64,000 nucleotides of DNA from an uncultured bacterium. Lineage in GTDB: Bacteria > Patescibacteriota > Saccharimonadia > UBA4664. Made by a program: the position numbers and the translations under genes. The stretch spans positions 455,113 to 519,112 of the forward strand of contig CAVRET010000001.1 of the NCBI GenBank assembly GCA_963720265.1. Direction: 5' to 3'. Position 1 is the first letter of the stretch. Each line of letters begins with the position of its first letter. This document shows, piece after piece, positions 15,648 to 59,029 of this stretch. The notes under the pieces are model-generated. The model searched no databases. It was not told the DNA's origin and saw only the letters and a list, made by a program, of their open reading frames with translations.

Positions 15648-15658
15648 CGTGGCCTCTC

Positions 15659-16177: not shown

Positions 16178-18724
16178 TTATTCGGCGGGCGACGTAGAAG
16201 CCGGGGACTCGGTTTCGGCTTCGTCGACGGCCGACTCAACAGGGGTGGTGGTTCGCTGTGCGGCGGTTAGCGCCAATTCGTCGCCGCGGCGGGTCACGGT
16301 AATGTTGTCGCCGGCTTTGAAACGGCCGTCGAGCAGACCGGTTGCCAGCGGATCCTCGATGAGATCCTGGATGGCACGGCGCATAGGCCGGGCGCCTTGC
16401 TTCATATCGTAGCCCTTTTCCATCAGCAGCGTGCGGGCCGAAGGCGTAACGCGCAGTTTGAGCTCAGTGTCGTCGAGGCGCTTGGACAGTTCACCTATCT
16501 GGAGGGATAGGATTTTCTTGATGTCGTTTTGCGACAGGGTCTTGAATACGATCTGGGCGTCAATGCGGTTGAGGAACTCAGGCCGAAATTGTTTCTTAAG
16601 GTCCTCGAGCACTTTTTGTTTAACCTTGTCGTGCTCAGCCTCAAGCATTTTCTCTTCCCCGGCGGTTTCGGTCCGGAAGCCGAGCTGGACTTCTTTGTGC
16701 ATGTCCGAGGCGCCAACGTTACTGGTCATGATTACGACCGTGTTGCGGAAATCAACGCGGCGGCCTTTGGCGTCAGTGACATATCCGTCTTCGAGAATTT
16801 GCAGCAACATATTGAACACATCGGGGTGGGCTTTTTCGAGCTCGTCGAAGAGAATGAGGCTGTAGGGCTTGCGGCGGACCTGCTCGGTGAGCTGGCCGCC
16901 TTCGTCAAAGCCGACATAACCGGCAGGTGCTCCGACGAGCCGGGCGACGTTGTGCTTTTCCATGAATTCAGACATGTCGATCTTAATCATGGCATCGCGG
17001 TCGTGGAACAATTCTTCTGAGAGAACGCGGGCGAGCTCGGTTTTACCAACACCGGTGGGCCCGAGGAAAATGAAGCTGCCGATCGGCTGGCGTTCGTCGG
17101 CAATGCCGGTGCGAGAGCGTCGGATAGCCCTGGCAATGGCGGTCACGGCCTCATCTTGGCCGACGACGCGGCGCGCCAACGACTCCTCGAGCTTTATGAG
17201 ACTTTCGACTTCAGTCTTGATTAGGCGCGTGACGGGGATGCCGGTCATGAGGGATACAACGGCGGCAATGTCTTCGGGCGTGATCTTGATGGCGGCATCG
17301 GCGGCACCGTCGCGAATCTTCATTTGGGCGAGGCGGGATTGGAGCTGAGATTCACGCGTCTTGAGACGAGCGGCGAGTTCGAAATCTTGATCAAAGACGG
17401 CATTTTCAATGTCGTCGCGAATTTCCGAGACCTGCTTGCCGAGATTGCGCACTGTTTTGGACGAGCCTCCGCGCTTAATGCGGGCGAGCGAGGCGGCTTC
17501 GTCAATGAGATCAATGGCCTTGTCAGGCAGGAAGCGATCCGCCACGTAGCGCTTGGCAAGTTTGGAAGCTGACTCAATCGCCTCGTCGGTAATCTCAACG
17601 CGGTGATGCTCCTCATAGCGGGGGCGCAGCCCGCGCAACACGGCAATTGTTTCATCAACGCTGGTTTCGGGCACCTGCACAGGCTGGAAGCGACGCTCAA
17701 GCGCGGCGTCTTTTTCAATGTGTTTGCGGTATTCCTCAAGGGTGGTTGCGCCAATGACCTGAATTTCACCGCGGCTCAAAGCCGGCTTTAAAATGTTGGC
17801 CGCATCGATGGCGCCTTCGGCTGCACCGGCACCGACGACTGTGTGGAGCTCATCAATAAAGAGAATGATCTCCGGGCTGGCCTTGGCTTCATCGAGAATT
17901 TTTTTGAGACGCTCTTCAAACTCGCCGCGGTACTTGGTACCGGCGATGACTGAGGCGAGGTCGAGCATAATGAGGCGCTTGCTCTGCAGCATCTCCGGCA
18001 CTTCTTCGGCCACGATGCGCTGCGCCAGGCCTTCCGCAATAGCGGTCTTTCCGACACCGGGCTCACCAATGAGCACAGGGTTATTTTTCGTCCGCCGGCC
18101 GAGAATAGAAATGACACGGCCGATTTGGACCTCGCGGCCAACCATGGGGTCAAGCGCAGAATCCCGGGCCTTGGCCGTTAGGTCAATGCCAAAGTGGTCA
18201 AGCGCCGGAGTCTTGGACTTACCGCCGGGTTTGCCGGTGCGGGTGCTCTGGCGCTCCTCTTCGGCGTAAAAGTATTGTTGGTTGCCGAGATAGCCTTCGA
18301 GTTCGGCCCGAATGACGGCCGGATCGACTTGCAAATCGTTTTTGAGCAAGCTGATGGCGCGGGCACTTTTTTCGCTCAGGATAGCAAATAAGATGTGCTC
18401 GGTGCCACAATATGGTTGGCCGAATTCTTTGGCCACACGTAGTGAATATGTAAGTGTTCGCTTGGCGGTCTCGGAAGCGCCTTTGTAGCCGGTGCCGGCC
18501 AATTGCGGCGAAAAGCTCAATACGAGCTGGGCTTTTTCAAATGTGACGCCGACGTTTTTTAGAATTTTGGCTCCAATGGAGCTGTCCTGTTGTAGGACGC
18601 CAAGCAAAATGTGCTCGGTGCCAACGTAGCTTGAACCCATCTGGTTGGCGATGACCTCGGCATTCTCCAAACTACGCTTGGCGTTTTCAGTAAACCGATC
18701 GAACTGTGAACTAAAATCGGCCAT
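16178..18724 (-). CDS. clpC: ATP-dependent Clp protease ATP-binding subunit ClpC
   Basis: Two Clp_N repeats, two AAA+ modules ([16 protein letters not shown]), UVR-like motif between D1 and D2. Start set at [11 protein letters not shown] (ATG 18724). The longer ORF to 18976 has an implausible N-terminus. Confidence 0.9.
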
Positions 18725-18812
18725 TTGTGAAGTGTCCTTTCTCTTACCCTCCCACGCTGGAGCCGATGCGTCAAGAGTTGGAAAGGTGACGGTCCAGGCG
18801 AGATATGCATTT

Positions 18813-18840
18813 AGTATAGCAGCGCTGGCACTCAATGCAA
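18813..18840 (-). promoter_or_regulatory. Candidate sigma70-type promoter for clpC (-35 TTGCAT, 16-nt spacer, -10 TATACT on the minus strand)
   Basis: Seen in the reverse complement ~90 nt upstream of the clpC ATG. No CtsR heptad repeat was recognisable. Confidence 0.3.
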
Positions 18841-19084
18841 GAGAGTGCCAATTTTGCCACCACCAAGCTTTTGAATGATTTTTCGGCAGGGTGCTAAAGC
18901 CGGGCGCGAAGACCCAGAGAGCTGCTTGAGACTTATGTTGCCGTACAATTCCAGGAATTGGCTGAGAGCAAAGCACCTATGCGGATAATGATTGATTTCG
19001 CCGCACAACAGGCACAAACTCACAACTATAGAGTGTCCGGAACAAAGAGCCGGACCTTTGGTAGGGAAGAGAGGAGCAGTGGGT

Positions 19085-19246
19085 ATGTCAGGAGTGCATG
19101 CAGGGGTAGATCTCCTAGGTATGGGTGCGCGTGAGCGGCACGAGTTGCTCGCGGGAAACAGCGCGACATCAAGCGCGCTGCGCGAAAGTGCCAAAAGGGG
19201 TGCGCTCAACTACATTCCGCTGTCGTCGTTCCAGGCGCGGGTCTGA
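19085..19246 (+). CDS. Small protein P1 (53 aa): MSGVHAGVDLLGMGARERHELLAGNSATSSALRESAKRGALNYIPLSSFQARV
   Basis: ATG preceded by GAGAGGAG (Shine-Dalgarno-like). A paralog of the next ORF: same length, 20/53 identical residues with no gaps, and shared C-terminal LSSFxAR[VI]. Confidence 0.5.
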   Translation: MSGVHAGVDLLGMGARERHELLAGNSATSSALRESAKRGALNYIPLSSFQARV

Positions 19247-19268: not shown

Positions 19269-19430
19269 ATGCCGGTCGTACAGGTCGGTGCCTCGCTCGC
19301 GGACATGAGTCCCAGAGCTAGGCACCAGTGGCTTGCCAGTAGTGCGCCCGTGGCGGTGGCTGCGCGAAGGCGTGCCCGTCAACAAGCACAGGGGAAGGTA
19401 GCCCTATCATCCTTCAACGCTCGCATCTAG
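19269..19430 (+). CDS. Small protein P2 (53 aa): MPVVQVGASLADMSPRARHQWLASSAPVAVAARRRARQQAQGKVALSSFNARI
   Basis: ATG preceded by GAGGAAAGGG, 22 nt after the P1 stop. Conserved residues relative to P1 are encoded by different synonymous codons (cgt/aga, cgg/agg, ctg/cta, tcg/tca), indicating selection at the protein level. Confidence 0.5.
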   Translation: MPVVQVGASLADMSPRARHQWLASSAPVAVAARRRARQQAQGKVALSSFNARI

Positions 19431-19442
19431 GAGAGGTGAACT

Positions 19443-19471
19443 GGGCTCCACCGCTCGCAGCAGTGGAGCCC
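19443..19471. terminator. GC-rich hairpin (9-bp perfect stem GGGCTCCAC/GTGGAGCCC, 11-nt loop) in the 47-nt gap between convergent P2 and the HExxH gene; candidate bidirectional terminator with no U-tract
   Basis: Seen directly in sequence. Confidence 0.35.
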
Positions 19472-19477
19472 AGGGGC

Positions 19478-21301
19478 CTATGTGACTACCTTTCCGAACC
19501 AGGAGATCAGCGCGTCCAGGCCAGGGCGGTGACCCTGCTTGCGCAGCGTGTTCATGAGGCAGAACATCTCCGGTAGATGCTGTTCCAGAATTCGCGCCCG
19601 CCTGGTCCAAGCCTGATCCTGGCTGCGCCTTGCGCTCAGCAACAGACCGATCCAGGCAGTTCGCTCGGTTGGGTCGAGATAGATGCCTTGGCAATACAAC
19701 GCCAAGGCATTGTCATACTCGCCGCGCGCGAAGCAATCATCTGCCGGGATGGGTTCAAGCCCATATCCCGTTGACTCGATCTGGGCGGCCCGCTCAAGGA
19801 GACCAACCAAGAACAGCGATTGCGCCCGCTCTTCCGGCTTGACCGCTTCCGCTTCGAGTACAAAGCGCAGCACGGTCGGGTTCTGCTCTGCGAGGTACGC
19901 GGATACGGCCGCTTCGATGTCTGCGGGCATAAAGCGCCGGTTGCGCAGTTGCCACATGGTTTCGTTGCACAGGTTGACGTCGTTTGCCGCAGCTTGCACT
20001 GCCGGTGACGCCGTGATTTCGATGGACTGCAGTGTCGTGATCGTTGCCTGAATGAAAACGGTCCAGGCTGGGCCGAGATGGCCGCGGGCCAAGAGCTCCG
20101 TCGCGGTATTGATGGTGGGTTCGTACCACCTCGCGAGATCGGCGGCGGCGGACGCGTGGTACCTGGCGGGACCATGTTCAAGTAGACCATGCCAGAAGCT
20201 GATCTGAACCGCAAAGGCCAGCACGCCATGCAATACTCCAAGCGTGGGCCGGGGATCGTCGCGCCACGGCGCGAACATTGTGGCCCTGCTTTCGTTTGGC
20301 GGGTAGACCCTGAGAAGTTCGTTGAGCAGCCCATGCTCGGTCTCGTGAAGCATGAGCCGCGCCAGGGTTACGGCATCAGGAGGTTCGGTCAGTGCCATGC
20401 CCCCGGGGCAGTCATCGATGGTAGAACTGCGCTCATCTCCTTCGTTTACCGGCTCGATGGGTGTCAGGCTAATAAGCAACCTTTTCACCCGCTCGAATCC
20501 GACCGGATCGCAGGCGGCGAGTATCTGACATGCCTCTGCAAAGAGAGCTTGCCAATGACCTGCATTGGTGATGCGTGCCCACTCGGCCGGCGGGTGAACA
20601 TTTCTGTACTGGTCCAGGTCATCGAGAACGACCTCATACCCGCTCGCCGGATCCTGAAGTCGTATGAACGACAGCCACGGAGGCTCGCTGGTGAGACTTG
20701 ATGCGAGCCTGACGTGATGATCGGCTTCAGCCAGGTCGAGTGCGACGCCGTCGCTTGACAGCCGCACCAAGCGGTCAGGCTCATCAGCCTCCATGATCGT
20801 GACGAGCCCTAGTGTCGGCAGAACGAGCGCGCCATTACGGACTGGTACCGGGAGATCGAAGGCCATCTGGGCACGGATGGCCATGGCGGCCAGCAGCGAA
20901 TTGAGGTGGCCGGCCATGAGTGTGAAATCTGGAGACTCCGTTTCTCTCGGGTCGTCGATTGCCCTGAGGATTTGGTTGGCCCAGTGCAGCGAAGTGGGCT
21001 GGCCGTAGAAGTATTCGTACATCAGCTCGGGGAAATCTTCCCCCAGCTTGATGAACAGCTCAACAGCCATGTCCATGCTCAGGCTTGCCGCTTGCGGCAA
21101 ATGAGGAAGCTCGACTACGACAACGCCGAGCTGGTGAACAGCATGCTGCAACCTGATCCTGCGAATTGCTTCGAGCAGGCCCGTCGCTTGGGCATTGGCT
21201 GTGCGAAAGTGTGACAGATACGGTTCGAGCGGTGAGACAACACCGTCGTCGGCTCCCATCTTAGGCCTTCCTGTTTGAGGTGCTTCCTTTGCTGGTTGCA
21301 A
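19478..21301 (-). CDS. HExxH-motif (zincin-like) putative metallopeptidase or peptide-modifying protein with C-terminal TPR-like repeats
   Basis: 607-aa ORF with LMLHETEHGLLNEL (HExxH plus nearby acidic and His residues) and C-terminal helical repeats (ALALYCQGIYLDPTERTAWIGLLLS). No other family motif recognised. Confidence 0.55.
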   Translation of the reverse strand: MQPAKEAPQTGRPKMGADDGVVSPLEPYLSHFRTANAQATGLLEAIRRIRLQHAVHQLGVVVVELPHLPQAASLSMDMAVELFIKLGEDFPELMYEYFYGQPTSLHWANQILRAIDDPRETESPDFTLMAGHLNSLLAAMAIRAQMAFDLPVPVRNGALVLPTLGLVTIMEADEPDRLVRLSSDGVALDLAEADHHVRLASSLTSEPPWLSFIRLQDPASGYEVVLDDLDQYRNVHPPAEWARITNAGHWQALFAEACQILAACDPVGFERVKRLLISLTPIEPVNEGDERSSTIDDCPGGMALTEPPDAVTLARLMLHETEHGLLNELLRVYPPNESRATMFAPWRDDPRPTLGVLHGVLAFAVQISFWHGLLEHGPARYHASAAADLARWYEPTINTATELLARGHLGPAWTVFIQATITTLQSIEITASPAVQAAANDVNLCNETMWQLRNRRFMPADIEAAVSAYLAEQNPTVLRFVLEAEAVKPEERAQSLFLVGLLERAAQIESTGYGLEPIPADDCFARGEYDNALALYCQGIYLDPTERTAWIGLLLSARRSQDQAWTRRARILEQHLPEMFCLMNTLRKQGHRPGLDALISWFGKVVT

Positions 21302-21360
21302 GGTTTAGGGCCTATTGTAAGGATTTAACCTGCCCGACTCAATTACTGACTAGTTTTTCA

Positions 21361-22620
21361 TCATTCAGGTTGAGGCGTGTCGAGGTCTTCTTGGCCGGAC
21401 AACGGATCGGTTTGATGCTCGGGTTCGTCATCATCCGTATTGGCAACGGCGTTGACCGTTTCAATGAGCGACGATTCAAGGTCGCGGCGACCGGCGCTGG
21501 GGCCAACGATGCTGGTGGCAGCATCGGCCGTGGCTTCCACGCGCGATTCGTCGGCCGAGACGATATCGATATTCCAGCCGGTGAGTTTGGCGGCCAGGCG
21601 AACGTTTTGGCCCTGCTTGCCAATCGCCAAGCTGAGTTGATCTTCGGGTACGCGCACGACAGCCTTCTTGTCGGCTTCGTTCAGATTAACGTTAACAACC
21701 TTGGTTGGGCTGAGAGCATTGGCGATGTAGGATTCCGGGTCGTCGGCAAAGGGAATGATGTCAATTTTTTCTTCGCCGAGGTCACTCATAACGGCTTGCA
21801 CACGGGAGCCGCGGCCGCCGACGAAGGTGCCGACCGCGTCGACACCAGGGGCGTGTGATTGTACCGCTACTTTGGAGCGGACGCCGGCCTCGCGGGCGAT
21901 ATTGATGATCTCAACCGTGCCGGCCTCAATTTCGGGTACCTCGAGCTCAAACAGATGGCGCACCATGTTGGGGTGGGCACGCGAGAGAACGATTTGCGGG
22001 CCGCGGGCAGTTTGCTCCACACGCACCACGTAGACTTTAAGGCGCTGGCCGGTGTAGTAGCGCTCATTGGGGATTTGCTCGCTGGCAAACAAAACACCAG
22101 TAGCCTTACCGAGATCCACGTACACAACATTGCCTTCGGCGCGCTGAACGCTGGCGGACAGTACGAGCCCTTCCTTGTCCTTGTATTCGGTGAAGACGAT
22201 CTCACGCTCGGCTTCGCGCAGGCGTTGGATAATCACTTGCTTGGCGGTTTGGGCGGCAACCCGGCCGAAGTCTTCGGGGAAGACTTCCATCTCGACCATA
22301 TAAGGCTCGTCTTCGGTGCCGACCTTGGCGTTTTTATCGAGTTTTTTGGCGTCTTTTAGATTGATGTAGAGATGCTCGTTATCGATTTCTTGATCATCCG
22401 GCACAACGGTTTTGGATACAAACAAGCGCACGTCGCCCGATTCTTGATCGAGCACGGCGCGAGCTTCTTGATCTTTATCGGAATAATCTTTCTTGTAGGC
22501 GGCGGCTAAAGCGGCCTCAACCGCTTCTATCACGATATCGCGGGGCAAATTTTTTTCTTCTGAAATGAGATTAATGGCGGCTAAAAAGTTCGTTTGCATA
22601 CGTTCGGACTCCTTATTCAA
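21361..22620 (-). CDS. nusA: Transcription termination/antitermination factor NusA
   Basis: N-terminal NusA domain, S1 and two KH domains (GKQGQNVRLAAKLTGWNIDI), acidic C-terminal tail. Confidence 0.9.
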   Translation of the reverse strand: MNKESERMQTNFLAAINLISEEKNLPRDIVIEAVEAALAAAYKKDYSDKDQEARAVLDQESGDVRLFVSKTVVPDDQEIDNEHLYINLKDAKKLDKNAKVGTEDEPYMVEMEVFPEDFGRVAAQTAKQVIIQRLREAEREIVFTEYKDKEGLVLSASVQRAEGNVVYVDLGKATGVLFASEQIPNERYYTGQRLKVYVVRVEQTARGPQIVLSRAHPNMVRHLFELEVPEIEAGTVEIINIAREAGVRSKVAVQSHAPGVDAVGTFVGGRGSRVQAVMSDLGEEKIDIIPFADDPESYIANALSPTKVVNVNLNEADKKAVVRVPEDQLSLAIGKQGQNVRLAAKLTGWNIDIVSADESRVEATADAATSIVGPSAGRRDLESSLIETVNAVANTDDDEPEHQTDPLSGQEDLDTPQPE

Positions 22621-23480: not shown

Positions 23481-23629
23481 GTGCTTCCCTCCCCTCTTTC
23501 GTCGGGCATGTCGGGATTGATATACTTAACTACTTATTTGTGTTTATGTAAAGCCATGATCAAGCGCTCATGGTTGCCGGAGCCGAGCACTGCAGGCTAC
23601 AATTGATAAAGTATTTTGAGGAGGAAGGC

Positions 23630-30831: not shown

Positions 30832-33800
30832 CTAGGTACGAGAAATTTGGCTCTCACCAACGAGAGCTGCGAGTTGGCTTAGGAGCTCATCGGTGATGGT
30901 AATACGAAACGGCAGGCGGATTTTCTTGGGCTGGTCAGTCCCTAGTAAGAGGTAGGCCTGGTCCGGGCCGTCGTGGGCCGAGAGAATGCGCTTGAGCTCG
31001 TGTAGGAGCTCGGCGTTGTTAAGGTCGGCCAGGCGCAAGGTAATGATGCCGGGTGTGACCACCGTGCCAGGGGCAGGGGCGGGCGCAGGCTTTGGCAGCA
31101 TGGCCTTACGTGGCAGGTGAACGGACTCGGATGGGCTGCTGGTTTTGGGTGCAGGGCGCTGGGCAGCTTGGGCGCGCGCAAGATTGTAGTCGGCGATACG
31201 AGCTGAATCCACCATTACTTTGGGCTCTGAAGTGAGGCGGCCGTCGCGATCTTTGGCCGAGATCTTGCCAGCGGCAATAATGACGTTGTCGGTCTCATAG
31301 ACCTCCGGGGAAGCCTCATAGGCCTTGGGGAAGACAATGAGCTCGGTGACGCCGGATTTGTCTTCCAGGCCGACAAAAGCCATGGTGGCGCCGTTTTTGG
31401 TGGTGATTTTACGCACCATGGTAATAAGGCCACCGACGCGCACGACTTTGCCGTCGCCTTCAGGCGTGATGCGGCTTAAGGCCTGGGTTTGGCCGGATAG
31501 GTAGCTCTCGTAGTCGTCGAGCGGATGCCTGCTCAGGTAGAGGCCAAGCAATTCGCGTTCCCAGCCGAGTTGCTCGCGGTTTGAGGTGGGCTGGGGCGGC
31601 GAATCGAGGCGCAGGGCCGGGGCGCTGTCTTCGGCTCCCAGACTGCCAAAGATGTCAATCTGGCCGGACAGAGCGTTTTTTTGCGACTTGGCGGCATAGG
31701 CGGTAATGGTGTCGAGATTAAAGAGCAACTGGCCGCGGTCGTTTGCAATGAGATTGTCAAAGGCACCGCATTTGGCCAGGGATTCCCAAACTTTTTTGTT
31801 GCACTCACGGGCGCTGACCCGTTTGGCAAAATCTTCAACGCTAGTGAACCGGCCGTCCTCGCGGGCGAGCAGGATAGCTTCGATCGGTCCGGAGCCAATA
31901 TTTTTTACCGCTGACAGCCCAAACCGAATGCTGGTTTTATCCGGTGCAACAGAAAACTCAAGCACGGATTCGTTGACATCCGGCGGTAAGACCGTAATGC
32001 CCAGCCGCTGGCACTCGGCTACTTCAATAGCGATGCGGTCAATGTTGCCGTAGTCGCTGGTGAGCAATGCTGCCATAAAGGCTGAGGGGTAATGGGCCTT
32101 GAGGTAGGCAGTTTGGTAGGCGATAAGCGCGTAGCAGGCCGAGTGGGCCTTGTTGAAGCAGTAGGCGGCAAAGGCTTCGAGTTGCTCCCACAGCTCTTCC
32201 ATGAGCGCGCGGTCGGCACCCACGGTTTGAATGGCGCCCTCGATGAAGTCGTTTTTGATTTTGGCCATGAGCTTGGGGTCTTTCTTGCCAATGGCCTTGC
32301 GCAAGGTGTCGGCCTGGCCGCCGGTGAAGCCGCACATCTCCTTGGAGATCTGCATGACCTGTTCCTGGGTGACCATAACGCCGTAGGTGGACTTGAGGGC
32401 GTTTTCCATGGCCGGGTGGAGGTACTCGATTTTTTTGCGACCGTGCTTGCGCTCAATGAAGTCGTCAATCCACTGAATAGGACCGGGGCGGTAGAGCGCC
32501 ACCATGGAGATAATGTCATCGAACACCGTGGGCTCAAGTTCGCGCAAATAACGCTTCATCCCGGCTGATTCAACCTGGAACACGCCGGTGGTGTCGCCGC
32601 GCGACAGCAGCGCGAAGGTAGCGGCGTCATCGAGCGGGATGGTAGCGATATCAATGGTTTGGCCATAGACCTCGCGCACGAGCTTTAAGGTGTCATTGAT
32701 AATGGTGAGGTTAGACAGACCCAGGAAATCCATTTTGAGCAGGCCGAGTTCTTCGACCGCATGGAGTTCGAATTGCGTGCAAATGCCGCCTTTTTGGGCG
32801 CGCTGGAGCGGGGCATAGTTTACGACCGGTTCGGGCGCAATCACGACACCGGCGGCGTGAATGCCGTTTGAGCGAATCGTACCCTCGAGGCGGGTGGCCT
32901 GATCGATGAGAGTTTTGGCGCGGGGGTTGGTACCAGTATTCTTTAACCAGCTCGGGATCGGGCGTCTGCTCGCCGCCTTTACCTGGTTGAATACCAGCCG
33001 ACACGGCTAGCGGCACGTGGCGACCCTGGACCGGCATAGGCACGAGTTTGGCAATGCGGTCGACCTCGTCGTAGCTCATGCCCAGTACGCGGCCGGTGTC
33101 GCGCACCGAGTTTCTGGCCGCCATGGTGCCGAAGGTAATGATTTGCGCCACGCGTTCGGCACCATATTTCTCAGTTACATAATCGATAACCTCGCCGCGG
33201 CGAGTGTCTTGGATATCAATATCAATATCAGGCATGGAGACGCGGTCGGGGTTTAAGAAGCGCTCAAACAGCAAATCGTACTTAATGGGGTCGAGGTCGG
33301 TGATGTTCATAACGTAGGCCACAATGGAGCCGGCCGCACTCCCCGCCCTGGGCCGAAGATAATGCCCTGGTTTTTGCCCCAGTTTATGAAGTCGGCGGTA
33401 ATCAGGAAGTAGCCGTCGTATCCCATTTTGGCAATGACCCCGAGCTCGTATTCGAGCCGTTCGACGGCAGCGTGATCAACGAGTTTTCTGGCCTTGTCTT
33501 CCGTAATGTGAGCAATGTCTTCCTTGGGAATGCCGCCGTAGCGCCAGGCCAGGCCTTGCCAGCAGAGATGATGCAAGTATTCGCGCTCGGCTTTGAATTC
33601 CTTGGGGACCTCGAACGTAGGGATGAGAATGCGGCCGAGCTCGATCTCGACGTTGCAGCGCTCAGCGATTTTAACCGTATTTGCAAGTGCCTCAGGTACA
33701 TGGGCAAAGCGTTCAGCGATTTCCTCTGGGCTTGAGACATAGAGGTCCATTTCCATTTTCATGCGATTGGGGTCGGACAGCTCTTTGCCGGTCTGGACGC

Positions 33801-34524
33801 ACAGCAAAATCTCGTGAGCTTCGCGCTCCTCGGGACGCGAATAGTGCGAGTCGGCCGTGACGACAAGTGGAATGCCGGTTTTGCGTGAGAGCTCGATTTT
33901 GGCTGCATTAAGCTTTTTTTGCATATCCCATTGATGCTCGTGAGCCTGTAGCTCGAGGAAGTAATTACCCCGGCCGAAGGTTTCATCGTACCAGCGGGCG
34001 ACGTTTTCGGCCTCAGCCAGATTGCCGGATTCAATATGGCCAGCTACTTCTCCACCGGCACAGGCGGAGAGTGCAATGAGCCCTTCGTGATATTTAGCCA
34101 GCAGCTCACGGTCGACGCGCGGCTTGTAGTAGTAGCCTTCGAGCTGGGCAATGGTGACAAGCCGCATAAGGTTGTGGAAGCCGGCCGTTGTTTCGGCGAG
34201 CAGTATGAGGTGATAGGGGTTGGCATCCTGGCGCCCGGCTTTGTCGAGGTGGGTGCGCGGCGCCACGTAGGTTTCGACACCAATGATGGGTTTGATATCC
34301 CTTTTCCCCGCCTCTTTGTAAAACTCAATGGCGCCGGACAGCGTACCGTGGTCGGTGAGCGCCACGGCTGTCATGCCAAGCTCGGCCACGCGGTCGAGCA
34401 TGCGGGGGACTTTTTGCAGCCCGTCGAGGAGCGAGTAGTGGCTGTGGTTGTGTAAGTGGACAAATCCCGGCTTGGTACCGGCTTTTGGCACAACTTCAAC
34501 CTTCCCCTCGCTCACTTCGGGCAC
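30832..34524 (-). pseudogene. dnaE: DNA polymerase III alpha subunit DnaE, interrupted by two apparent frameshifts. One is a 1-nt deletion in the GPGRGSAAGS motif near 33329-33334. The other is a +1/-2 indel at a C5/G5 run near 32922-32932.
   Basis: Three consecutive ORFs (33307..34524 PHP domain; 32711..33322; 30832..32844) translate to contiguous DnaE sequence when frames are switched. The conserved GPGRGS reads GPGRG-V in frame, and [21 protein letters not shown] is encoded out of frame relative to the upstream EYW. Confidence 0.75.
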
Positions 34525-37910: not shown

Positions 37911-38414
37911 TCATAAGAATAGTTCAACCCACTTGGGTGCACTGGGCGTATATTTTTCCGGATTATGGTCAAGCTCTTGCCGCAGCCGATCCCCAGGAAC
38001 CCAGGCTATTTGGGCCACTTCGGCTTCACGGATGGTGAATTTTTCCAGCGGCCAGTCGGACTCGGCCGTAAACCACTGGACAAAGAATTGGCGTCCGTCG
38101 TCGCCGTTTATGAGCACCTTTGGTCCAAGCTGAAAAATAGCGCCGGTGAGGCCAACTTCTTCCTCGGCCTCTTTGTAGATGTTTTGCTCGTACGTTTCCC
38201 CTGGCTCAACAGTACCGGCGGCGGCCGGGCCCCATTTCCCAGGGTTATTGCTTTTCGTGAAAGCGCGCCGCGCCATTAGAATTTCACCCTTGGAATTTGT
38301 GAGCCAGAGTGAGGCTACGCGGTAAACGTCGCCGTGCGTTAGCTCGCGGCGTGGCTTCGAGCCAATGACCTGATCATGTTCATCGACAGTTGTTGCGAGT
38401 TCGTCTGCCGCCAT
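37911..38414 (-). CDS. NUDIX hydrolase
   Basis: Nudix box GTVEPGETYEQNIYKEAEEEVGL; the last gene of the gat operon (shares the stop/start position with gatB). Confidence 0.7.
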   Translation of the reverse strand: MAADELATTVDEHDQVIGSKPRRELTHGDVYRVASLWLTNSKGEILMARRAFTKSNNPGKWGPAAAGTVEPGETYEQNIYKEAEEEVGLTGAIFQLGPKVLINGDDGRQFFVQWFTAESDWPLEKFTIREAEVAQIAWVPGDRLRQELDHNPEKYTPSAPKWVELFL

Positions 38415-39865
38415 TATTTTCCGAGCCGCTCCTTGAGAAGCTTTGTGATGAGGGGCGGGTTGCCTTTGCCTTGGGTGGCCTTCATGGCGGCGCCAACGAG
38501 CGCGCCGAGAGCCCTAGCGTTGCCGGCTTTGTAATCTGCGGCCGCGGCTGGATTGGCAGCCAGAACGTCGTCGACTACCTTGGCGAGCTCATTAACGTTT
38601 GATTCCTGGATGAGGTTCATTTCGCGGGCAAGTTCGGCTGGATCATGGTCGTAATGGGGTTCGGCGCGGAGCTTGGCGAGTAGCTCGCGGGAGTTGGTGG
38701 AGCTGAGTTCGGATTTTGCAGCCATGTCGGCGACACGATTTAAGATCTCGGGTGTCAGATGCGATTCGGGGCCGTGTTCTTCGCGCTGTTTAATCTCCGG
38801 CCCGGTGAGCCAGGTAAAGACGAAACGCGCGTGCTTGGGTTCAAGTCTGTGGGCCTTAAACCAGAGCTTGGCAAGTTCCGGCTCAGCCACCAGTACTTCG
38901 GCCTCCTTGTGGGCGATTTTGGCCTCGATGAGAAGTTTGCGTAAGTCATTGGGCAGGAAATCAAAGTCACCGGCGGCATCGGCCATGGCTTTCGGGATTA
39001 CCAGCGGGGGTAAGTCGGGTTCCGGGAAGTAGCGGTATTCATCGGCATCTTCTTTGGAGCGCATGGCGTAGGTTTTTTGCTTGGCCTCGTTCCAGCCGCG
39101 GGTTTCCTGGCGGATTTTTTCGCCTTTTTCGACCGCTTCGATTTGGCGCTGCGTCTCGTATTCAATGGCGCGCTCGACGTTGCGAAAACTGTTGAGATTC
39201 TTGGTCTCGGTGCGGGTACCAAAGGGTAGCCCTGGCTTGTGGACGCTGACGTTTACATCAAAGCGCATGTTGCCGTAATAGAGATCCGCATCCGAGGCGC
39301 CGGTGTAGCGGGCCAGGTTGTGCAGCTCCTGGGCGTAGGCTTTGGCTTCGGCGGCACTGCGCATGTCGGGCTCGGAGACGATTTCGAGCAGCGGAGTTTC
39401 GGCGCGGTTGAGGTCAACCAGCGAGTAATCCGCGCCGTCCGGGTGGGTGAGCTTACCGGCGTCGCCTTCGAGGTGGGCGCGGGTGATGCCGACGCGCATG
39501 GTTTTGCCCTCCACCGGGAATTCGACCCAGCCGTTCGGCACGATAGGCTCGTCGAACTGGGTGATTTGGTAGCCTTTGGGGAGGTCGGGGTAGAAATAGT
39601 TCTTGCGATCAAATTTGGTGTGAAGCTTTTCCGGATATGTGGCGTTTAGGGCTTTTCCAAGCTGTAATGCCAGCTCGACCGCGCGTTTGTTGAGTACTGG
39701 TAAGGCGCCCGGCTGACCGGTGCAGATTTCGCAAACGTGGGTGTTGGGCTCGGCGTCTCGCGAATCGTTGTCGCATGAGCAAAACAACTTGGATTTGGTC
39801 GCGAGCTGCACGTGCGTTTCCAGGCCGATGACTACTTCATATTGGTCCCGCAATTTCGTATCCAT
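38414..39865 (-). CDS. gatB: Asp-tRNA(Asn)/Glu-tRNA(Gln) amidotransferase subunit B
   Basis: 483 aa with the conserved GatB N-terminus (LETHVQL..., CSCDND) and C-terminal YqeY-like domain. Confidence 0.9.
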   Translation of the reverse strand: MDTKLRDQYEVVIGLETHVQLATKSKLFCSCDNDSRDAEPNTHVCEICTGQPGALPVLNKRAVELALQLGKALNATYPEKLHTKFDRKNYFYPDLPKGYQITQFDEPIVPNGWVEFPVEGKTMRVGITRAHLEGDAGKLTHPDGADYSLVDLNRAETPLLEIVSEPDMRSAAEAKAYAQELHNLARYTGASDADLYYGNMRFDVNVSVHKPGLPFGTRTETKNLNSFRNVERAIEYETQRQIEAVEKGEKIRQETRGWNEAKQKTYAMRSKEDADEYRYFPEPDLPPLVIPKAMADAAGDFDFLPNDLRKLLIEAKIAHKEAEVLVAEPELAKLWFKAHRLEPKHARFVFTWLTGPEIKQREEHGPESHLTPEILNRVADMAAKSELSSTNSRELLAKLRAEPHYDHDPAELAREMNLIQESNVNELAKVVDDVLAANPAAAADYKAGNARALGALVGAAMKATQGKGNPPLITKLLKERLGK

Positions 39866-40287: not shown

Positions 40288-40288
40288 G

Positions 40289-41148: not shown

Positions 41149-41615
41149 AACGCTCCCAAGGCTTTAAGACCGGTCTCGAAATCGGAGATAGCTTCTTTGG
41201 CTTGACTTGGTACCAGGTCGAAGCCAACTTCGTGCGCTAGGGCATTACGCAGCTTGTGTGCGCGCCAGATGTGGTCGTAGACCTCGCGGTCGGCGAAGCG
41301 CGAACGGGCAGCTTTGAGGCGGTCGCCCATGCTGTCACCTGCAACACCTTGTTGGCGCATGATGTGATCGAACAACTTGTCGGCTTCGTTTATGGCTTGG
41401 CGCATGCCGTTTCCTCCACTCGCCGCCATGGCCTCAATGGTCGCCCAGCGGGTGAAAATTTGTTCGCGGTTTAGGGGTTCAATGCCGTGGGCTCTGGCAG
41501 TGGCGTGGCGCCTTTTGGCCCGGCGGCGCTTGGGGTCGCCGGCGACCAGCGCCAACACCAGTACACCGCCAACGACTGCCAGTAGTAAAAAGGAAAAAAC
41601 CGCAGACGGGCTCAT
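41145..41615 (-). CDS. Hypothetical membrane-anchored protein
   Basis: 156 aa, N-terminal TM helix then a basic stretch (KRRRAKRRHA). Overlaps the gatA stop by 4 nt. Confidence 0.4.
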   Translation of the reverse strand: MSPSAVFSFLLLAVVGGVLVLALVAGDPKRRRAKRRHATARAHGIEPLNREQIFTRWATIEAMAASGGNGMRQAINEADKLFDHIMRQQGVAGDSMGDRLKAARSRFADREVYDHIWRAHKLRNALAHEVGFDLVPSQAKEAISDFETGLKALGAL

Positions 41616-43066
41616 TCTTTCACCGTGCCTTTGGCGTGTTCGATGAGGCCTTCGACAGCACAGGCGGCGGCCAGGAGCTTTCGTTCGGCCCGTTGCGGTG
41701 CCATCAGTTGGAGCCCGATCGGCAGCACACCGATTTTGCCAAATGGGATGGAAATGGCCGGAATACCAACGAGGTTGGCGGCCACCGTCATGATATCTTC
41801 AAGGTAGAGAGCAAGGGGGTCGCCGGATTTGGCGCCGAGTTTAAAGGCCGAAGACGGCGACGTTGGTCCGAGCAGCAGGTCGTATTTTTTAAAGGCGTCG
41901 TTGAATTGCTCGATGAGCTTGGTGCGGACCTTCTGTGCCCGCTTGTAATAAGCATCGTAATAGCCGCTTGAGAGCACGTAGGTGCCGATCATTATGCGGC
42001 GCTTGGCTTCAGGCCCAAAGCCTTCGGCGCGGGATAGGAAGTAGGTGTCTTCGAGGCTCTTGGCGTTTGGTGAACTGTAGCCGTAGCGCACGCCGTCGTA
42101 GCGCGCGAGGTTGGAGCTAATTTCGGCCGGAACCAAAATGTAGTAGGCGGCCAGCGCCTGCTCGGTGGCGGGCACACTCACCTCTTCAACGATTGCACCG
42201 TGCTTTTTAAGCAAGGCAGCGGTGGCTTCGAGTTGGGATTTGATCTCGGGGTCCAAGCCTTCGCCTAAATATTCTTTAATAAGGCCGATCTTGAGGCCGG
42301 CAAGGTGGCTATGCGTAATTGCATACCCTTCCGGGTCGCGGGGGGTGGTGGTGGCGTCGGACGGATGCGGGCCGGCGAAACAATCGAGCACCAGGCCGGC
42401 GTCGGCCACCGTGCGGGTGAGCGGGCCCATGACGTCGGTGGAGCTGGCCATAGCAACGACGCCGGTACGCGGACTGAGACCGTAGGTGGGCTTGAGCCCA
42501 ACCACGCCGCAGAGCGCGGCCGGCTGGCGAATGGAACCGCCAGTATCGGAGCCAATGGCAAATGCCACTTGGCCGAGCGCCACGCTGGCTGCTGATCCAC
42601 CGGAGCTGCCGCCGGGCACACGTTCGGAATCTGCCGGGTTTTTGGTTGGGCCAAAGTCGGAGTTTTCGGTGGAGGTGCCGTGAGCAAAGGCGTCGAGGTT
42701 GGACTTGGCGACCAGTACTGCACCCGCTTGCATGAGGCGTACTATGACCGGGCCCTGGTACGGCGCTGTAAACGGCTCGAGAATATGGCTGGCGGCCGTA
42801 GTGTGTGTGCCAAATGTGAGGTAGTTATCCTTAGCCGCAAACGGCAATCCAGCCAGTGGCAGGTGCTCGCCGGCTTTGACCCGCTTATCGACCGCACGCG
42901 CGTGCTCGAGCGCATCAGGGTTGATCTCTAGCATGGTATGGAATTCCTCGGTGGCTCCCATGCGGTCGAGGCTAGCCTGGGTAAGTTCAACGGCACTTAG
43001 ACGGCCGGCCTGGACGTCGGCCGCGAGCTCTGCTAGCGGGCGGGTGAGGTCGGCAAGTTTAGCCAT
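41612..43066 (-). CDS. gatA: Glutamyl-tRNA(Gln)/Asp-tRNA(Asn) amidotransferase subunit A
   Basis: Amidase signature region (GGSSGGSAASVALG), 484 aa. Confidence 0.9.
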   Translation of the reverse strand: MAKLADLTRPLAELAADVQAGRLSAVELTQASLDRMGATEEFHTMLEINPDALEHARAVDKRVKAGEHLPLAGLPFAAKDNYLTFGTHTTAASHILEPFTAPYQGPVIVRLMQAGAVLVAKSNLDAFAHGTSTENSDFGPTKNPADSERVPGGSSGGSAASVALGQVAFAIGSDTGGSIRQPAALCGVVGLKPTYGLSPRTGVVAMASSTDVMGPLTRTVADAGLVLDCFAGPHPSDATTTPRDPEGYAITHSHLAGLKIGLIKEYLGEGLDPEIKSQLEATAALLKKHGAIVEEVSVPATEQALAAYYILVPAEISSNLARYDGVRYGYSSPNAKSLEDTYFLSRAEGFGPEAKRRIMIGTYVLSSGYYDAYYKRAQKVRTKLIEQFNDAFKKYDLLLGPTSPSSAFKLGAKSGDPLALYLEDIMTVAANLVGIPAISIPFGKIGVLPIGLQLMAPQRAERKLLAAACAVEGLIEHAKGTVKE

Positions 43067-57016: not shown

Positions 57017-57019
57017 TTT

Positions 57020-59016: not shown

Positions 59017-59029
59017 GGTGACTCCTTGG

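What the first reader, a model, noticed from the sequence alone, without database searches (positions are those of the whole stretch)
19478..21301. HExxH/TPR protein occupies the position normally held by infB downstream of nusA; rimP is also absent upstream
In most bacteria nusA sits in a rimP-nusA-(ylxR)-infB-rbfA operon. Here nusA (22620->21361) is followed 60 bp downstream, on the same strand, by a 607-aa protein with a zincin-like HETEH motif and a TPR-like C-terminus. Upstream of nusA is a 246-aa hypothetical with no RimP features. Breaking a deeply conserved operon is unusual. It suggests either a rearrangement hot-spot or co-expression of this putative metallopeptidase with nusA. HExxH proteins with C-terminal helical repeats include peptide-modifying or immunity proteases and F420-biosynthesis-associated hydrolases. 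I cannot assign the family from sequence alone.
Basis: partly seen in the sequence, partly recalled or inferred. Interest (0 to 1): 0.55.

Follow-up and report, generated by a model that had tools for sequence, protein, structure and literature searches.

The report
Peptide-modifying oxygenase cassette beside nusA
The "HExxH protease" after nusA is really an iron/α-ketoglutarate peptide oxygenase with two small, previously overlooked substrate-peptide genes next to it, inserted into a reduced Saccharibacteria genome whose relatives all lack infB and rimP at this spot.

Summary
The ORF is real (19478..21301, minus strand; HETEH at 20333-20347). The likelier start is ATG 21259, giving 593 aa and a 101-bp gap from nusA.

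The window comes from a Candidatus Saccharimonadia (CPR) genome. In more than 20 relatives nusA is followed by clpC, never by infB, and rimP is never upstream. The broken operon is therefore a lineage trait.

What is specific to this genome is a 2.6-kb insertion between nusA and clpC. It holds the enzyme and, convergent with it, two paralogous 53-codon genes ending LSSFQARV* and LSSFNARI*. These show protein-level selection.

Actinomycete homologues of the enzyme are likewise flanked by short peptides with conserved C-terminal tails (FxSxx-COOH or RxD types).

My best reading is a minimal, probably horizontally acquired RiPP-like peptide-processing cassette. The exact chemistry is inferred: β-hydroxylation, and possibly oxidative removal of the AR[VI] tail. 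It is a new, divergent member of a known kind, of moderate interest.

The parts
19478..21259 (-). Gene for a stand-alone αKG-HExxH-type peptide oxygenase. It is 593 aa from ATG 21259; the ORF stays open up to TTG 21301, which would give 607 aa. Residues about 40-430 form the SjiH/ChlH-like catalytic domain, followed by a C-terminal helical extension.
20333..20347 (-). HETEH, the metal-binding HExxH motif (H319, E320, H323 in 607-aa numbering).
   Evidence: Translation. These are invariant columns in the 43-sequence family alignment A1.
20246..20266 (-). WRDDPRP, the second family-invariant motif (W346, R347, D349, P350, R351, P352). Its role is presumed; it may contribute to cosubstrate or substrate binding.
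   Evidence: Translation. Invariant columns in A1. The same motif aligns in SjiH. Its function was not tested.
19481..19747 (-). C-terminal TPR-like helical repeats (residues 519-607).
   Evidence: Pfam TPR_11 E 0.011, below the cut-off. Designed consensus TPR proteins match residues 524-553. The model shows helices 519-606 at pLDDT above 90. Translation.
19085..19246 (+). pepA, a candidate precursor peptide of 53 aa ending ...PLSSFQARV*.
   Evidence: ORF. It is called as a 53-aa gene in the public record. It is a paralogue of pepB: SW score 86 against 21.8 ± 4.2 for shuffles, and none of 20,000 shuffles reaches it. AGAGGAG lies upstream.
19269..19430 (+). pepB, a second candidate precursor peptide of 53 aa ending ...ALSSFNARI*. 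It starts 23 nt after the pepA stop and is not among the genes called on the Logan contig or the proteins found in the representative library.
   Evidence: ORF. It has the same length as pepA. Nucleotide identity is 46%, yet 21 residues are identical, 15 of them through different synonymous codons. The similarity appears only in this frame. It is absent from the gene calls and the representative library.
19441..19473 (.). GC-rich hairpin (15-bp arms, 3-nt loop) filling the 47-nt gap between the convergent stop codons of pepB and the enzyme gene. It is a likely bidirectional terminator or 3' stabiliser, though it has no U-tract.
   Evidence: Inverted repeat I7, 93% complementary. Folding energy -32.5 and -32.4 kcal/mol, z -3.2 and -3.7, with 0 of 200 shuffles as stable.
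21314..21342 (-). Sigma-70-like promoter match (TTGAGT-17-TACAAT) in the nusA-to-enzyme gap.
   Evidence: a consensus match only. No terminator-like site or stable structure lies between nusA and the enzyme gene.
18962..18989 (+). Sigma-70-like promoter match (CTGAGA-16-GATAAT) about 95 nt upstream of pepA.
   Evidence: a consensus match only.
21361..22620 (-). nusA, one border of the insertion (context, not part of the cassette).
   Evidence: TIGR01953 at 384.5 bits. It is 60-83% identical to NusA of Saccharimonadia genomes.
16178..18724 (-). clpC-type AAA+ chaperone gene, the other border of the insertion. The true start is probably ATG 18724; the ORF extension up to 18976 looks spurious.
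   Evidence: Pfam Clp_N, AAA, AAA_2 and UVR hits. It lies directly downstream of nusA in relatives. The N-terminus MADFSSQF... is.

Best explanation
The locus is a minimal three-gene RiPP-like 'peptide-processing' cassette. It is inserted into the variable nusA-clpC junction of a Candidatus Saccharimonadia (CPR) genome.

The 593-aa protein is a stand-alone Fe(II)/α-ketoglutarate-dependent HExxH-type peptide oxygenase (SjiH/ChlH fold) with a C-terminal TPR-like extension. The two convergent 53-aa genes, pepA and pepB, encode its probable substrates. Each has a leader of about 45 residues sharing the pattern G..L..M..R.RH..LA, and a conserved C-terminal core, LSSF(Q/N)AR(V/I)-COOH.

Inferred mechanism:
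1. The enzyme binds the leader.
2. The HExxH-bound iron, with αKG and O2, hydroxylates one or more core residues. Phe, Gln and Asn are all precedented targets.
3. By analogy with PflC/PosC acting on Q-ARMD, it may abstract the α-hydrogen of the Ala at position -3. That would oxidatively release AR(V/I) and leave a peptide ending in (hydroxy)Gln/Asn-amide.
4. A housekeeping protease would then remove the leader. The TldD/PmbA pair 2 kb away is one candidate.

The cassette was most likely acquired horizontally. Its relatives are centred in Actinomycetota, the phylum of the known hosts of cultured Saccharibacteria.

What is shown: enzyme family and fold, paralogy and coding selection of the peptides, insertion status, and the same enzyme-plus-peptide pairing in homologues. 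What is inferred: that pepA and pepB are the substrates, the chemistry, the donor and the biological role.
For: Enzyme:
- TIGR04267 at 97.6 bits against a cut-off of 40.
- Every invariant column of a 43-member family alignment is retained, including H319, E320, H323 and WRDDPRP.
- Sequence homology to solved αKG-HExxH enzymes.
- The family's biochemistry is published: PMC12636437 and PMC13060819, which cite Morishita et al., Nat Chem 2024.

Peptides:
- The two ORFs are equal in length, and their similarity is far beyond chance and specific to one frame.
- 15 of 21 conserved residues use different synonymous codons.
- Both have SD-like sequences upstream.

Pairing:
- In 8 distinct homologue loci with DNA, the enzyme has short peptides with conserved tails beside it. 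They lie upstream on the same strand in all but L036, where the candidate peptide ORF was picked by eye. Examples: four tandem GGGAER[IV]D*, AAGGERID*, PAARFD*, GFQSVL*, GFQSAV*.
- This matches the 'peptide-processing system' of PMC7159879, section 24.
- The tail FQARV/FNARI has the FxSxx register (F at -5; compare FQSAV in L042) and an A-R-hydrophobic end like ARMD, AARFD and AERID.
- PosC needs only the Ala for oxidative cleavage (PMC12636437).

Insertion:
- More than 20 relatives have nusA followed by clpC, with gaps as short as about 100-250 bp, and none has the HExxH gene.
- An independent short-read assembly shows the same gene order.

Distribution:
- Nearly all named homologues are Actinomycetota, and none is Patescibacteria.
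- The homologue loci have GC 0.65-0.71.
Against: - pepA and pepB lie downstream of the enzyme gene and convergent with it. In the homologue loci the peptides lie upstream on the same strand.
- They match no peptide HMM. TIGR04268 is negative for them, although it does detect the canonical FxSxx peptides of L042 and L037. They have no relatives among 1.84 billion representative proteins. Their link to the enzyme therefore rests on adjacency and analogy.
- Only one genome carries the cassette, so there is no evolutionary conservation to lean on.
- The enzyme is a long-branch outlier: median identity 25% to family members, which share 41% with each other.
- No transporter, dedicated protease, radical SAM, NB-ARC or VMAP partner was found among the ORFs scanned.
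- GC and codon usage are indistinguishable from the backbone, so there is no compositional sign of transfer.
- There are no expression or biochemical data.
- The tails lack the terminal Asp of RxD/ARMD tails and the Ser of FxSxx tails, so the chemistry cannot be read off from precedent.
Confidence: 0.72

Rival explanations
1. The protein is a zincin-type metallopeptidase, as the first reader proposed and as older annotation of the family states (Haft & Basu 2011 and PMC7159879 call it an 'MPTase'). It would hydrolytically clip a small C-terminal peptide off pepA and pepB.
For: An HExxH motif is present. PMC7159879, section 24, describes the family as a zincin-like metallopeptidase that cleaves the small protein. 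PMC12636437 reports that PflC hydrolytically releases ARMD when the leader is absent, so some residual peptidase chemistry exists in the family.
Confidence: 0.08
2. The enzyme is functional, but the two small ORFs are not its substrates. They could be an unrelated duplicated small-protein pair. The true substrate would be encoded elsewhere, or could be a host-derived peptide.
For: The orientation is convergent, unlike the homologue loci. The peptides match no family model and have no relatives. Only 64 kb of a contig of at least 568 kb was inspected.
Against: Every homologue locus examined with DNA has short conserved-tail peptides next to the enzyme. pepA and pepB have the same size (53 aa against 54-73 aa), tandem duplication as in Streptomyces L034, variable leaders with a conserved extreme C-terminus, and a tail resembling both FQSAV and ARMD-type tails. 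They arrived in the same lineage-specific insertion.
Confidence: 0.1
3. The gene is functionally tied to nusA. It would be co-transcribed as a replacement for infB, so that a peptide-modifying or proteolytic activity is coupled to the transcription machinery.
For: It is on the same strand as nusA with a gap of 60-101 bp, and no terminator-like site or stable hairpin lies between them.
Against: The gene is absent from all 20+ relatives that share the nusA-clpC backbone. The same slot holds unrelated genes in other relatives. A promoter-like site lies in the gap. infB is not at this position anywhere in the lineage, so nothing is being 'replaced'.
Confidence: 0.03
4. The cassette is a decaying, non-functional remnant of a transferred actinobacterial system. 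It would have lost its radical-SAM, NB-ARC or VMAP partners.
For: The partners usual in actinomycetes were not found among the ORFs scanned. The enzyme is on a very long branch. The genome shows other signs of sequence damage or error, such as the out-of-frame segment in dnaE.
Against: The 593-607-codon ORF is intact and every family-invariant residue is retained. The model is confident and well folded. The two peptides show purifying selection on the tail, with synonymous changes in the conserved codons. Stand-alone enzyme-plus-peptide loci without NB-ARC or rSAM also exist in Streptomyces (L034 and L041).
Confidence: 0.06

Closest known systems
SjiH (PDB 22ob/22nu), the αKG-HExxH domain of a protein deposited as 'radical SAM core domain-containing protein'
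   Different: Identity is only 24-25%. The deposited chain ends after the catalytic domain and has no TPR-like tail. Its molecule name implies a radical-SAM partner or fusion, which is absent here. I found no paper on SjiH in the library.
ChlBH / ChlH (PDB 8s5f), the founding αKG-HExxH β-hydroxylase (Morishita et al., Nat Chem 2024, cited in PMC12636437 and PMC13060819)
   Different: Identity is 13-15%. ChlH is fused to a radical-SAM cyclophane synthase and needs a pre-installed cyclophane. Here there is no radical-SAM gene in the window, and the enzyme carries a TPR-like extension.
PflC / PosC (Pseudomonas; PMC12636437)
   Same: They are stand-alone αKG-HExxH enzymes acting on linear precursor tails. 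Their substrate core F-D-Q(n)-A-R-M-D resembles SSF-(Q/N)-A-R-(V/I). They β-hydroxylate Gln/Asn and oxidatively cleave before the Ala, giving a C-terminal amide, and only the Ala of ARMD is essential.
   Different: Their precursors have long NHLP-type leaders, and their clusters include GNAT, MNIO-nitroreductase and transporter genes. The window tails lack the final Asp and have a single Gln or Asn. I could not compare the sequences directly, because no usable PflC protein sequence was available.
Fxs / 'peptide-processing systems' of actinobacterial VMAP-ternary conflict systems (Haft's FxSxx-COOH system; PMC7159879, section 24)
   Same: The core pair is the same: an HExxH protein plus a small, rapidly diverging peptide with a conserved C-terminal tail. 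The window enzyme's nearest homologues are these proteins. Loci L036, L038-L040 and L042 show the typical NB-ARC/TPR, AAA_5, VMAP, TIR and EAD neighbours. The tail has F at -5, as in FxSxx-COOH.
   Different: No NB-ARC, MoxR, VMAP or TIR partner and no radical SAM/SPASM was found among the window ORFs scanned. The tail has Ala where FxSxx has Ser, and it fails TIGR04268. The peptides are convergent with the enzyme rather than upstream. The host is a CPR bacterium, not an actinomycete.
BpmH (biphenomycin) and PesO (nitrilobacillin) αKG-HExxH hydroxylases (PMC12257519, PMC13060819)
   Same: They belong to the same enzyme family and tailor RiPP cores by β-hydroxylation. The bpm cluster also uses a TldD-type peptidase for trimming, and a TldD/PmbA pair lies 2 kb from the window cassette.
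   Different: Those enzymes are accessory tailoring steps in multi-enzyme clusters (MNIO, arginase, Asn-synthetase-like). Here the HExxH enzyme is the only modifying enzyme in sight.

Membership tests
αKG-HExxH-type peptide β-hydroxylase (NCBIfam TIGR04267 / InterPro IPR026337) | Match to the family HMM above the curated cut-off | tested here: met
   TIGR04267.2: 97.6 bits against a cut-off of 40, E 7.9e-28, residues 254-416 covering profile positions 1-173 of 177.
αKG-HExxH-type peptide β-hydroxylase (NCBIfam TIGR04267 / InterPro IPR026337) | Conserved HExxH iron-binding motif and the other family-invariant residues | tested here: met
   HETEH at residues 319-323 and WRDDPRP at 346-352. All 26 invariant columns of the 43-sequence alignment A1 are present in the window protein.
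αKG-HExxH-type peptide β-hydroxylase (NCBIfam TIGR04267 / InterPro IPR026337) | The distinct αKG-HExxH fold seen in the ChlH and SjiH crystal structures | tested here: met
αKG-HExxH-type peptide β-hydroxylase (NCBIfam TIGR04267 / InterPro IPR026337) | Fe(II)- and α-ketoglutarate-dependent oxidation of a peptide substrate | not testable with these tools
   This needs biochemistry. It has been demonstrated only for other members (PMC12636437, PMC13060819).
Zincin metallopeptidases (gluzincin/metzincin clans) | HExxH motif | tested here: met
   HETEH. The motif is shared with the αKG-HExxH oxygenases, so it does not discriminate between the two.
   Pfam at E up to 0.1 returns only a weak TPR_11 hit. 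NCBIfam returns only the two HExxH-hydroxylase models.
Zincin metallopeptidases (gluzincin/metzincin clans) | Structural similarity to solved zincin peptidase catalytic domains | tested here: not met
FxsA, FxSxx-COOH cyclophane RiPP precursor (NCBIfam TIGR04268; Pfam PF27839) | Match to the precursor HMM | tested here: not met
   pepA and pepB give no hit at E up to 10. The positive controls L042 (42.6 bits) and L037 (32.9 bits) pass the cut-off of 28. PF27839 is not in the local Pfam copy, so it was not tested.
FxsA, FxSxx-COOH cyclophane RiPP precursor (NCBIfam TIGR04268; Pfam PF27839) | C-terminal F-x-S-x-x-COOH | tested here: not met
   The tails are F-Q-A-R-V and F-N-A-R-I. Phe is at -5, but position -3 is Ala rather than Ser. 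Compare the canonical FQSAV (L042) and FQSVL (L037).
FxsA, FxSxx-COOH cyclophane RiPP precursor (NCBIfam TIGR04268; Pfam PF27839) | Adjacent radical SAM/SPASM maturase (FxsB) | tested here: not met
   No CxxxCxxC motif occurs in any long ORF of the 64-kb window, and there was no Radical_SAM Pfam hit among the ORFs scanned. The rest of the genome was not available.
RxD-type tail peptides of actinobacterial peptide-processing systems (PMC7159879) | C-terminal R-x-D-COOH | tested here: not met
   The tails end in A-R-V and A-R-I: Arg is at -2 and there is no terminal Asp. Compare AERID, AERVD, GERID and AARFD in L034, L038 and L041.
HExxH 'peptide-processing system' core (PMC7159879, section 24) | HExxH protein gene adjacent to one or more small, rapidly diverging peptide genes with a conserved C-terminal motif | tested here: met
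   The enzyme gene is 47 nt from pepB, and pepA is 22 nt further on. The leaders have diverged (38% identity overall), while 6 of the last 8 residues are identical.
HExxH 'peptide-processing system' core (PMC7159879, section 24) | Coupled AP-ATPase (NB-ARC) with TPRs, and/or a VMAP-MoxR ternary system | tested here: not met
   None was found among the window ORFs scanned with Pfam, NCBIfam and PADLOC. Partners are present in homologue loci L036, L038-L040 and L042 but absent in Streptomyces L034 and L041.
rimP-nusA-(ylxR)-infB-rbfA operon | infB downstream of nusA and rimP upstream of it | tested here: not met
   Neither gene is in the window. In more than 20 Saccharimonadia relatives nusA is followed by clpC. 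It is preceded by a divergent aminopeptidase-like gene of about 850 aa, by yraN-like genes or by small hypothetical genes.

The most novel reading that the evidence does not exclude
An episymbiotic Saccharibacterium has captured the peptide-maturation core (HExxH oxygenase plus tail peptides) of an actinobacterial VMAP/NB-ARC-TPR conflict system from the phylum of its hosts, and has stripped it of sensors and effectors. It makes matured FxAR-tail peptides that mimic the host's own signal peptides, and uses them to trigger or silence the host's NB-ARC/TPR immune or cell-death sensors during parasitism.
Probability: 0.05. Interest if true: 0.85.

Novelty: new member of a known kind. Interest (0 to 1): 0.4.

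Why it matters
CPR/Saccharibacteria genomes are small and thought to have little capacity for specialised metabolites.

- A complete, compact enzyme-plus-two-substrates cassette would be an easy system to reconstitute. It has three genes, no radical SAM enzyme and 53-aa peptides. It could be used to ask what a stand-alone αKG-HExxH enzyme does to a linear F(Q/N)AR(V/I) tail, including whether oxidative C-terminal amidation extends beyond the Pseudomonas ARMD peptides.
- The enzyme's relatives are almost all actinomycete, and in actinomycetes they sit in conflict-system loci. The cassette is therefore also a candidate example of host-phylum-to-episymbiont gene flow.
- On the practical side, HExxH next to a housekeeping gene should not be annotated as a protease, and one of the two peptide genes is missing from the public gene calls I could see.

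Tried and rejected
- Looked for infB and rimP in the window. NCBIfam or Pfam on all large ORFs, and a G1-motif scan in six frames, found none.
- Tested zincin, DUF2342 and F420-associated hydrolase ideas by Pfam and NCBIfam. No hits.
- PADLOC on the enzyme, the 246-aa protein and eight other hypothetical proteins. No hits.
- Looked for relatives of pepA and pepB with a two-sequence profile against 1.84 billion representatives. Only pepA itself and one spurious hit came back.
- NCBIfam and Pfam peptide models. Both negative, and PF27839 is not in the local Pfam copy.
- Looked for compositional signs of horizontal transfer. GC, GC3 and a codon index are all within the backbone range.
- Looked for flanking direct or inverted repeats or mobile-element borders around the insertion. 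Only short, chance-level matches, apart from the inter-stop hairpin.
- Rfam on the whole window. Nothing near the locus.
- Tested whether the 246-aa protein upstream of nusA is related to the 205-242-aa proteins at that position in relatives, or recurs in HExxH loci. It does neither.
- Tried to get the PflC/PosC protein sequences from the paper's supplement for a direct comparison. Only machine-read plasmid DNA and other translations were available.
- The founding Nat Chem 2024 paper and any SjiH paper are not in the library.
- A neighbour-joining bootstrap tree timed out. I replaced it with pairwise identities, which show no clear sister clade.
Full report
**1. Checking the observation**

The ORF is real. 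It spans 19478..21301 on the minus strand and is 607 codons from a TTG. It contains HETEH at 20333-20347. nusA (21361..22620, minus strand) is a solid call: TIGR01953 at 384.5 bits, with NusA_N, S1 and KH domains.

The 246-aa ORF upstream of nusA has no Pfam or NCBIfam match and no RimP features.

Two details need correction:
- The TTG start has no ribosome-binding site. The ATG at 21259 is preceded by GGAAGG, and it is the start used in the public gene call (P0001, 593 aa). The gene is therefore probably 593 aa and 101 bp from nusA.
- The first 24-37 residues of the 607-aa version are also the only disordered part of the structure model.

No infB lies anywhere in the 64-kb window. The ORFs of 590 aa or more are recG, a class A PBP, clpC, two pieces of dnaE, a lectin-like protein and the ORF under study. 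No GHVDHGKT-type motif exists in any frame.

**2. Where the window comes from, and what that does to the 'broken operon' argument**

NusA finds 60-83% identical proteins only in Candidatus Saccharibacteria/Saccharimonadia (Patescibacteria, CPR) genomes.

I compared 18 window proteins with those loci. The conserved backbone is rplS - rnhB - (variable) - nusA - clpC - radA - PIN-domain protein - PBP.
- In L004, L007 and L013-L022, clpC starts only about 100-340 bp after nusA.
- No relative has infB downstream of nusA.
- Upstream of nusA is usually a divergent aminopeptidase-like gene of about 850 aa, a yraN-like gene or small hypothetical genes. It is never a conserved rimP.

The absence of rimP and infB is therefore a trait of the whole class and says nothing about this locus.

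What is specific here is a 2.6-kb insertion between nusA and clpC. tblastn finds the HExxH gene in none of the relatives. It finds it only in an independent short-read assembly of what is evidently the same organism (L001), which shows the same order: tldD - 246-aa gene - nusA - HExxH - small gene - clpC. That rules out a chimeric assembly.

The same junction holds 0.5-4.7 kb of unrelated genes in the closest relatives. Examples are a 765-aa histidine kinase in L003, membrane proteins in L002, and small HTH proteins in L010, L024 and L025.

**3. What the protein is**

Pfam gives only a sub-threshold TPR_11 hit. NCBIfam gives TIGR04267, 'aKG-HExxH-type peptide beta-hydroxylase', at 97.6 bits against a cut-off of 40. 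It also gives a partial match to the FxsBH model.

The protein has sequence homology to two solved members: 22nu_A (SjiH, E 3e-19 over residues 114-426) and 8s5f_A (ChlH, E 8e-6). A 43-sequence family profile hits SjiH at E 2.4e-93 over positions 9-431. In that alignment the window protein keeps all 26 invariant columns, including H319, E320, H323 and W346, R347, D349, P350, R351, P352.

The AlphaFold2 model built on this alignment is confident (pLDDT 85.1, pTM 0.86).
- Foldseek against the PDB finds only SjiH (E 2.5e-17, TM 0.80 normalised to the target) and the 'HExxH domain of ChlBHExxH, a novel alpha-ketoglutarate dependent oxygenase' (TM 0.70-0.76). BepA and LTA4H are at noise level (E above 0.5, TM 0.12-0.16).

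The published biochemistry of the family supports the same reading. Members are Fe(II)/αKG dioxygenases that bind iron through the HExxH motif. They β-hydroxylate His, Asp, Phe, Gln, Asn or Pro in RiPP precursors. PflC and PosC additionally cleave the backbone oxidatively (PMC12636437; PMC13060819).

**4. The overlooked part: two precursor-like genes**

About 750 bp separate the enzyme's stop codon from the real clpC start (ATG 18724). This stretch holds two tandem ORFs on the opposite strand:
- pepA, 19085..19246: MSGVHAGVDLLGMGARERHELLAGNSATSSALRESAKRGALNYIPLSSFQARV*
- pepB, 19269..19430: MPVVQVGASLADMSPRARHQWLASSAPVAVAARRRARQQAQGKVALSSFNARI*

Evidence that they are real paralogous genes:
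- Both are exactly 53 codons long.
- Their Smith-Waterman score is 86, against 21.8 ± 4.2 for shuffles (maximum 49 in 20,000). The similarity exists only in this reading frame.
- Nucleotide identity is only 46%. Of the 21 positions with the same amino acid, 15 use different synonymous codons, including most of the L-S-S-F-x-A-R-x tail. That is the signature of selection on the protein, not of a DNA repeat.
- Both have purine-rich SD-like sequences upstream.

A 15-bp GC-rich hairpin (-32.5 kcal/mol, z about -3.2 to -3.7) fills the 47-nt gap between the convergent stop codons.

pepA is a called gene in the public collection. pepB is not.

**5. The same pairing in homologues**

The nearest homologues are only 26-33% identical. 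Nearly all the named ones are actinomycete 'HEXXH motif domain' proteins of about 600 aa with the same architecture. Their loci have GC 0.65-0.71.

In every locus where DNA was available, short peptide genes sit next to the enzyme:

| Locus | Peptides | Neighbours |
|---|---|---|
| L034 (Streptomyces) | four tandem 55-58-aa peptides ending GGGAER[IV]D* | no rSAM or NB-ARC |
| L038/L039 (Lentzea) | ...AAGGERID* | NB-ARC-TPR, AAA_5, VMAP |
| L041 (Streptomyces) | ...PAARFD* | no rSAM or NB-ARC |
| L040 | ...RFGGYST* | NB-ARC, AAA_5, VMAP/EAD, TIR |
| L037 | ...LAGFQSVL* | separate radical-SAM gene |
| L042 | ...VVGFQSAV* | separate radical-SAM gene |
| L035 | ...AGFSNFHPKDRQ* | separate radical-SAM gene |

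L036 also has a 61-aa candidate peptide ORF upstream, ending ...TSCTDDH*, next to an NB-ARC/TPR gene. I picked that ORF from an ORF scan, so it is less certain.

This is the 'peptide-processing system' of Kaur et al. (PMC7159879, section 24). It consists of an HExxH protein, then thought to be a peptidase, plus a small rapidly diverging peptide. The peptide tails are of the FxSxx, RxD or acidic type. The FxSxx type is accompanied by radical SAM/SPASM. The systems are usually coupled to NB-ARC-TPR and VMAP-MoxR conflict systems, and the peptide is proposed to be a toxin or signal.

My small sample follows the same rule. TIGR04268 recognises only the rSAM-associated peptides (L042 42.6 bits, L037 32.9 bits). 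It does not recognise the RxD-type peptides or the window peptides.

**6. Reading the window tails**

F-Q-A-R-V and F-N-A-R-I have Phe at -5, as in FxSxx-COOH (compare FQSAV), but Ala replaces Ser. They also end in A-R-hydrophobic, like the RxD-type AARFD and AERID and the Pseudomonas ARMD, but without the final Asp.

PflA reads roughly ...IFDQQQQQARMD in machine-read supplement text. PosC and PflC β-hydroxylate the Gln/Asn residues and then abstract the Ala α-hydrogen. This releases ARMD and leaves a C-terminal amide. Arg, Met and Asp are individually dispensable, and the Ala is essential.

By analogy, I propose hydroxylation within SSF(Q/N) and possibly oxidative removal of AR(V/I). This step is inference. 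The enzyme is too divergent, and the tail too different, for prediction from precedent. PMC13060819 itself notes that the family's reactions 'at present cannot be predicted'.

**7. Partners and context**

- No radical-SAM signature (CxxxCxxC) occurs in any long ORF.
- I scanned 46 window ORFs with Pfam, NCBIfam or PADLOC, including nearly all those above about 200 aa. None is an NB-ARC, MoxR, vWA, VMAP, TIR, transporter or dedicated protease gene.
- A TldD/PmbA pair lies 2 kb away (23570-26493). It occupies the same position in relative L006, which lacks the cassette, so it is not part of the insertion. TldD-type peptidases do trim RiPPs elsewhere (PMC12257519), so it is a candidate leader peptidase. 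This is speculation.
- The 246-aa protein upstream of nusA is also specific to this genome and has no detectable relatives in the loci examined. Its role is unknown.

**8. Origin**

The cassette is absent from all relatives, and the family is centred in Actinomycetota. Together these make horizontal acquisition the economical explanation.

Composition does not support a recent transfer: GC is 0.60 and GC3 0.69, like the backbone. The enzyme is a long-branch outlier, with median identity 25% against 41% among the others and no clear sister. The transfer is therefore either old, or from an unsampled donor, or was followed by fast divergence.

From my own knowledge and the abstracts (PMC9040727, PMC8764695): cultured Saccharibacteria are obligate episymbionts, and their known hosts are actinobacteria. 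That makes host-phylum-to-symbiont transfer attractive but unproven.

**9. Verdict**

The 'metallopeptidase' label is wrong.

What is actually there is a compact, divergent member of a known kind of system: an αKG-HExxH peptide oxygenase with two cognate-looking precursor peptides, sitting as a lineage-specific insertion in a CPR genome.

| Claim | Confidence |
|---|---|
| Enzyme family | about 0.95 |
| pepA/pepB are real genes | about 0.85 |
| pepA/pepB are the substrates | about 0.7 |
| Proposed chemistry | about 0.3 |
| Actinobacterial origin | about 0.5 |

Interest is moderate (0.4). The result is not surprising to RiPP specialists. It is unusual for Saccharibacteria, and it is directly testable with three small constructs.

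Noticed in passing
window 30832-34524 (- strand): dnaE appears broken. The N-terminal part (33307..34524) and the C-terminal part (30832..32844) are in the same frame. The roughly 450 nt between them (about 32880-33330) encode good DnaE sequence (…[21 protein letters not shown]…) only in a different frame. That implies two compensating frameshifts, which could be assembly indels or a real disruption.
   Followed up: partly
window 14545-16135 (- strand): A second lineage-specific insertion sits in the same backbone. An SDR (277 aa), a 127-aa hypothetical protein and a PNPOx-like protein (158 aa) lie between clpC and radA. These two genes are adjacent in most relatives, though other relatives have different inserts there.
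   Followed up: partly
window 39865-41615 (- strand): Four small, tightly packed genes separate gatA (41612..43066) from gatB (38414..39865). At least two are PNPOx-like (Pfam PF01243). This is an unusual interruption of the gatCAB cluster, and there are three PNPOx-family paralogues within 26 kb.
   Followed up: no
window 19269-19430 (+ strand): pepB is not among the genes called on the Logan contig or in the protein collection searched, whereas its paralogue pepA is. The second precursor-like gene is probably unannotated.
   Followed up: yes
window 56877-58177 (+ strand): A SAM riboswitch (RF00162, 59.5 bits) lies directly upstream of metK (S-adenosylmethionine synthetase). This is an ordinary arrangement.
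   Followed up: yes
window 6881-7699 (- strand): A DDE transposase (DDE_Tnp_1_3, E 5e-29) lies between tyrS and the PBP region. It shows that mobile elements are or were active in this reduced genome.
   Followed up: no
window 51144-52922, 58174-60388, 61515-62447: A set of accessory genes unusual for a small CPR genome: a 592-aa lectin-like protein, a pentapeptide-repeat protein, a Ser/Thr protein kinase, and a Peptidase A4 (eqolisin-type) homologue.
   Followed up: no
window 23570-26493 (+ strand): A TldD/PmbA (TldD/E) peptidase pair lies 2 kb from the cassette. It occupies the same position in relative L006, while most relatives have an aminopeptidase-like gene of about 850 aa there instead. 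TldD-type peptidases trim RiPPs in other systems (PMC12257519), so it is a possible leader peptidase.
   Followed up: partly
window 22740-23480 (- strand): The 246-aa protein upstream of nusA is an orphan. It has no Pfam, NCBIfam or PADLOC hit and is absent from all relatives and from the HExxH loci. It is unrelated to the 205-242-aa proteins at that position in L005, L006 and L013.
   Followed up: partly
L034 5929-7119 (- strand), Streptomyces locus: Directly upstream of the four tandem RxD-type peptides is a 396-aa protein with its own HExxGH motif (…LHEVLGHGLQ…) and no Pfam hit. It may be a second metalloenzyme or peptidase of that cassette.
   Followed up: no
window 16178-18976 (- strand): The mechanical clpC ORF is 932 aa from a GTG, but the conserved protein starts at ATG 18724 (MADFSSQF…). 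The upstream 84 codons are probably not translated. That leaves a region of about 360 bp between clpC and pepA that could hold divergent promoters.
   Followed up: partly
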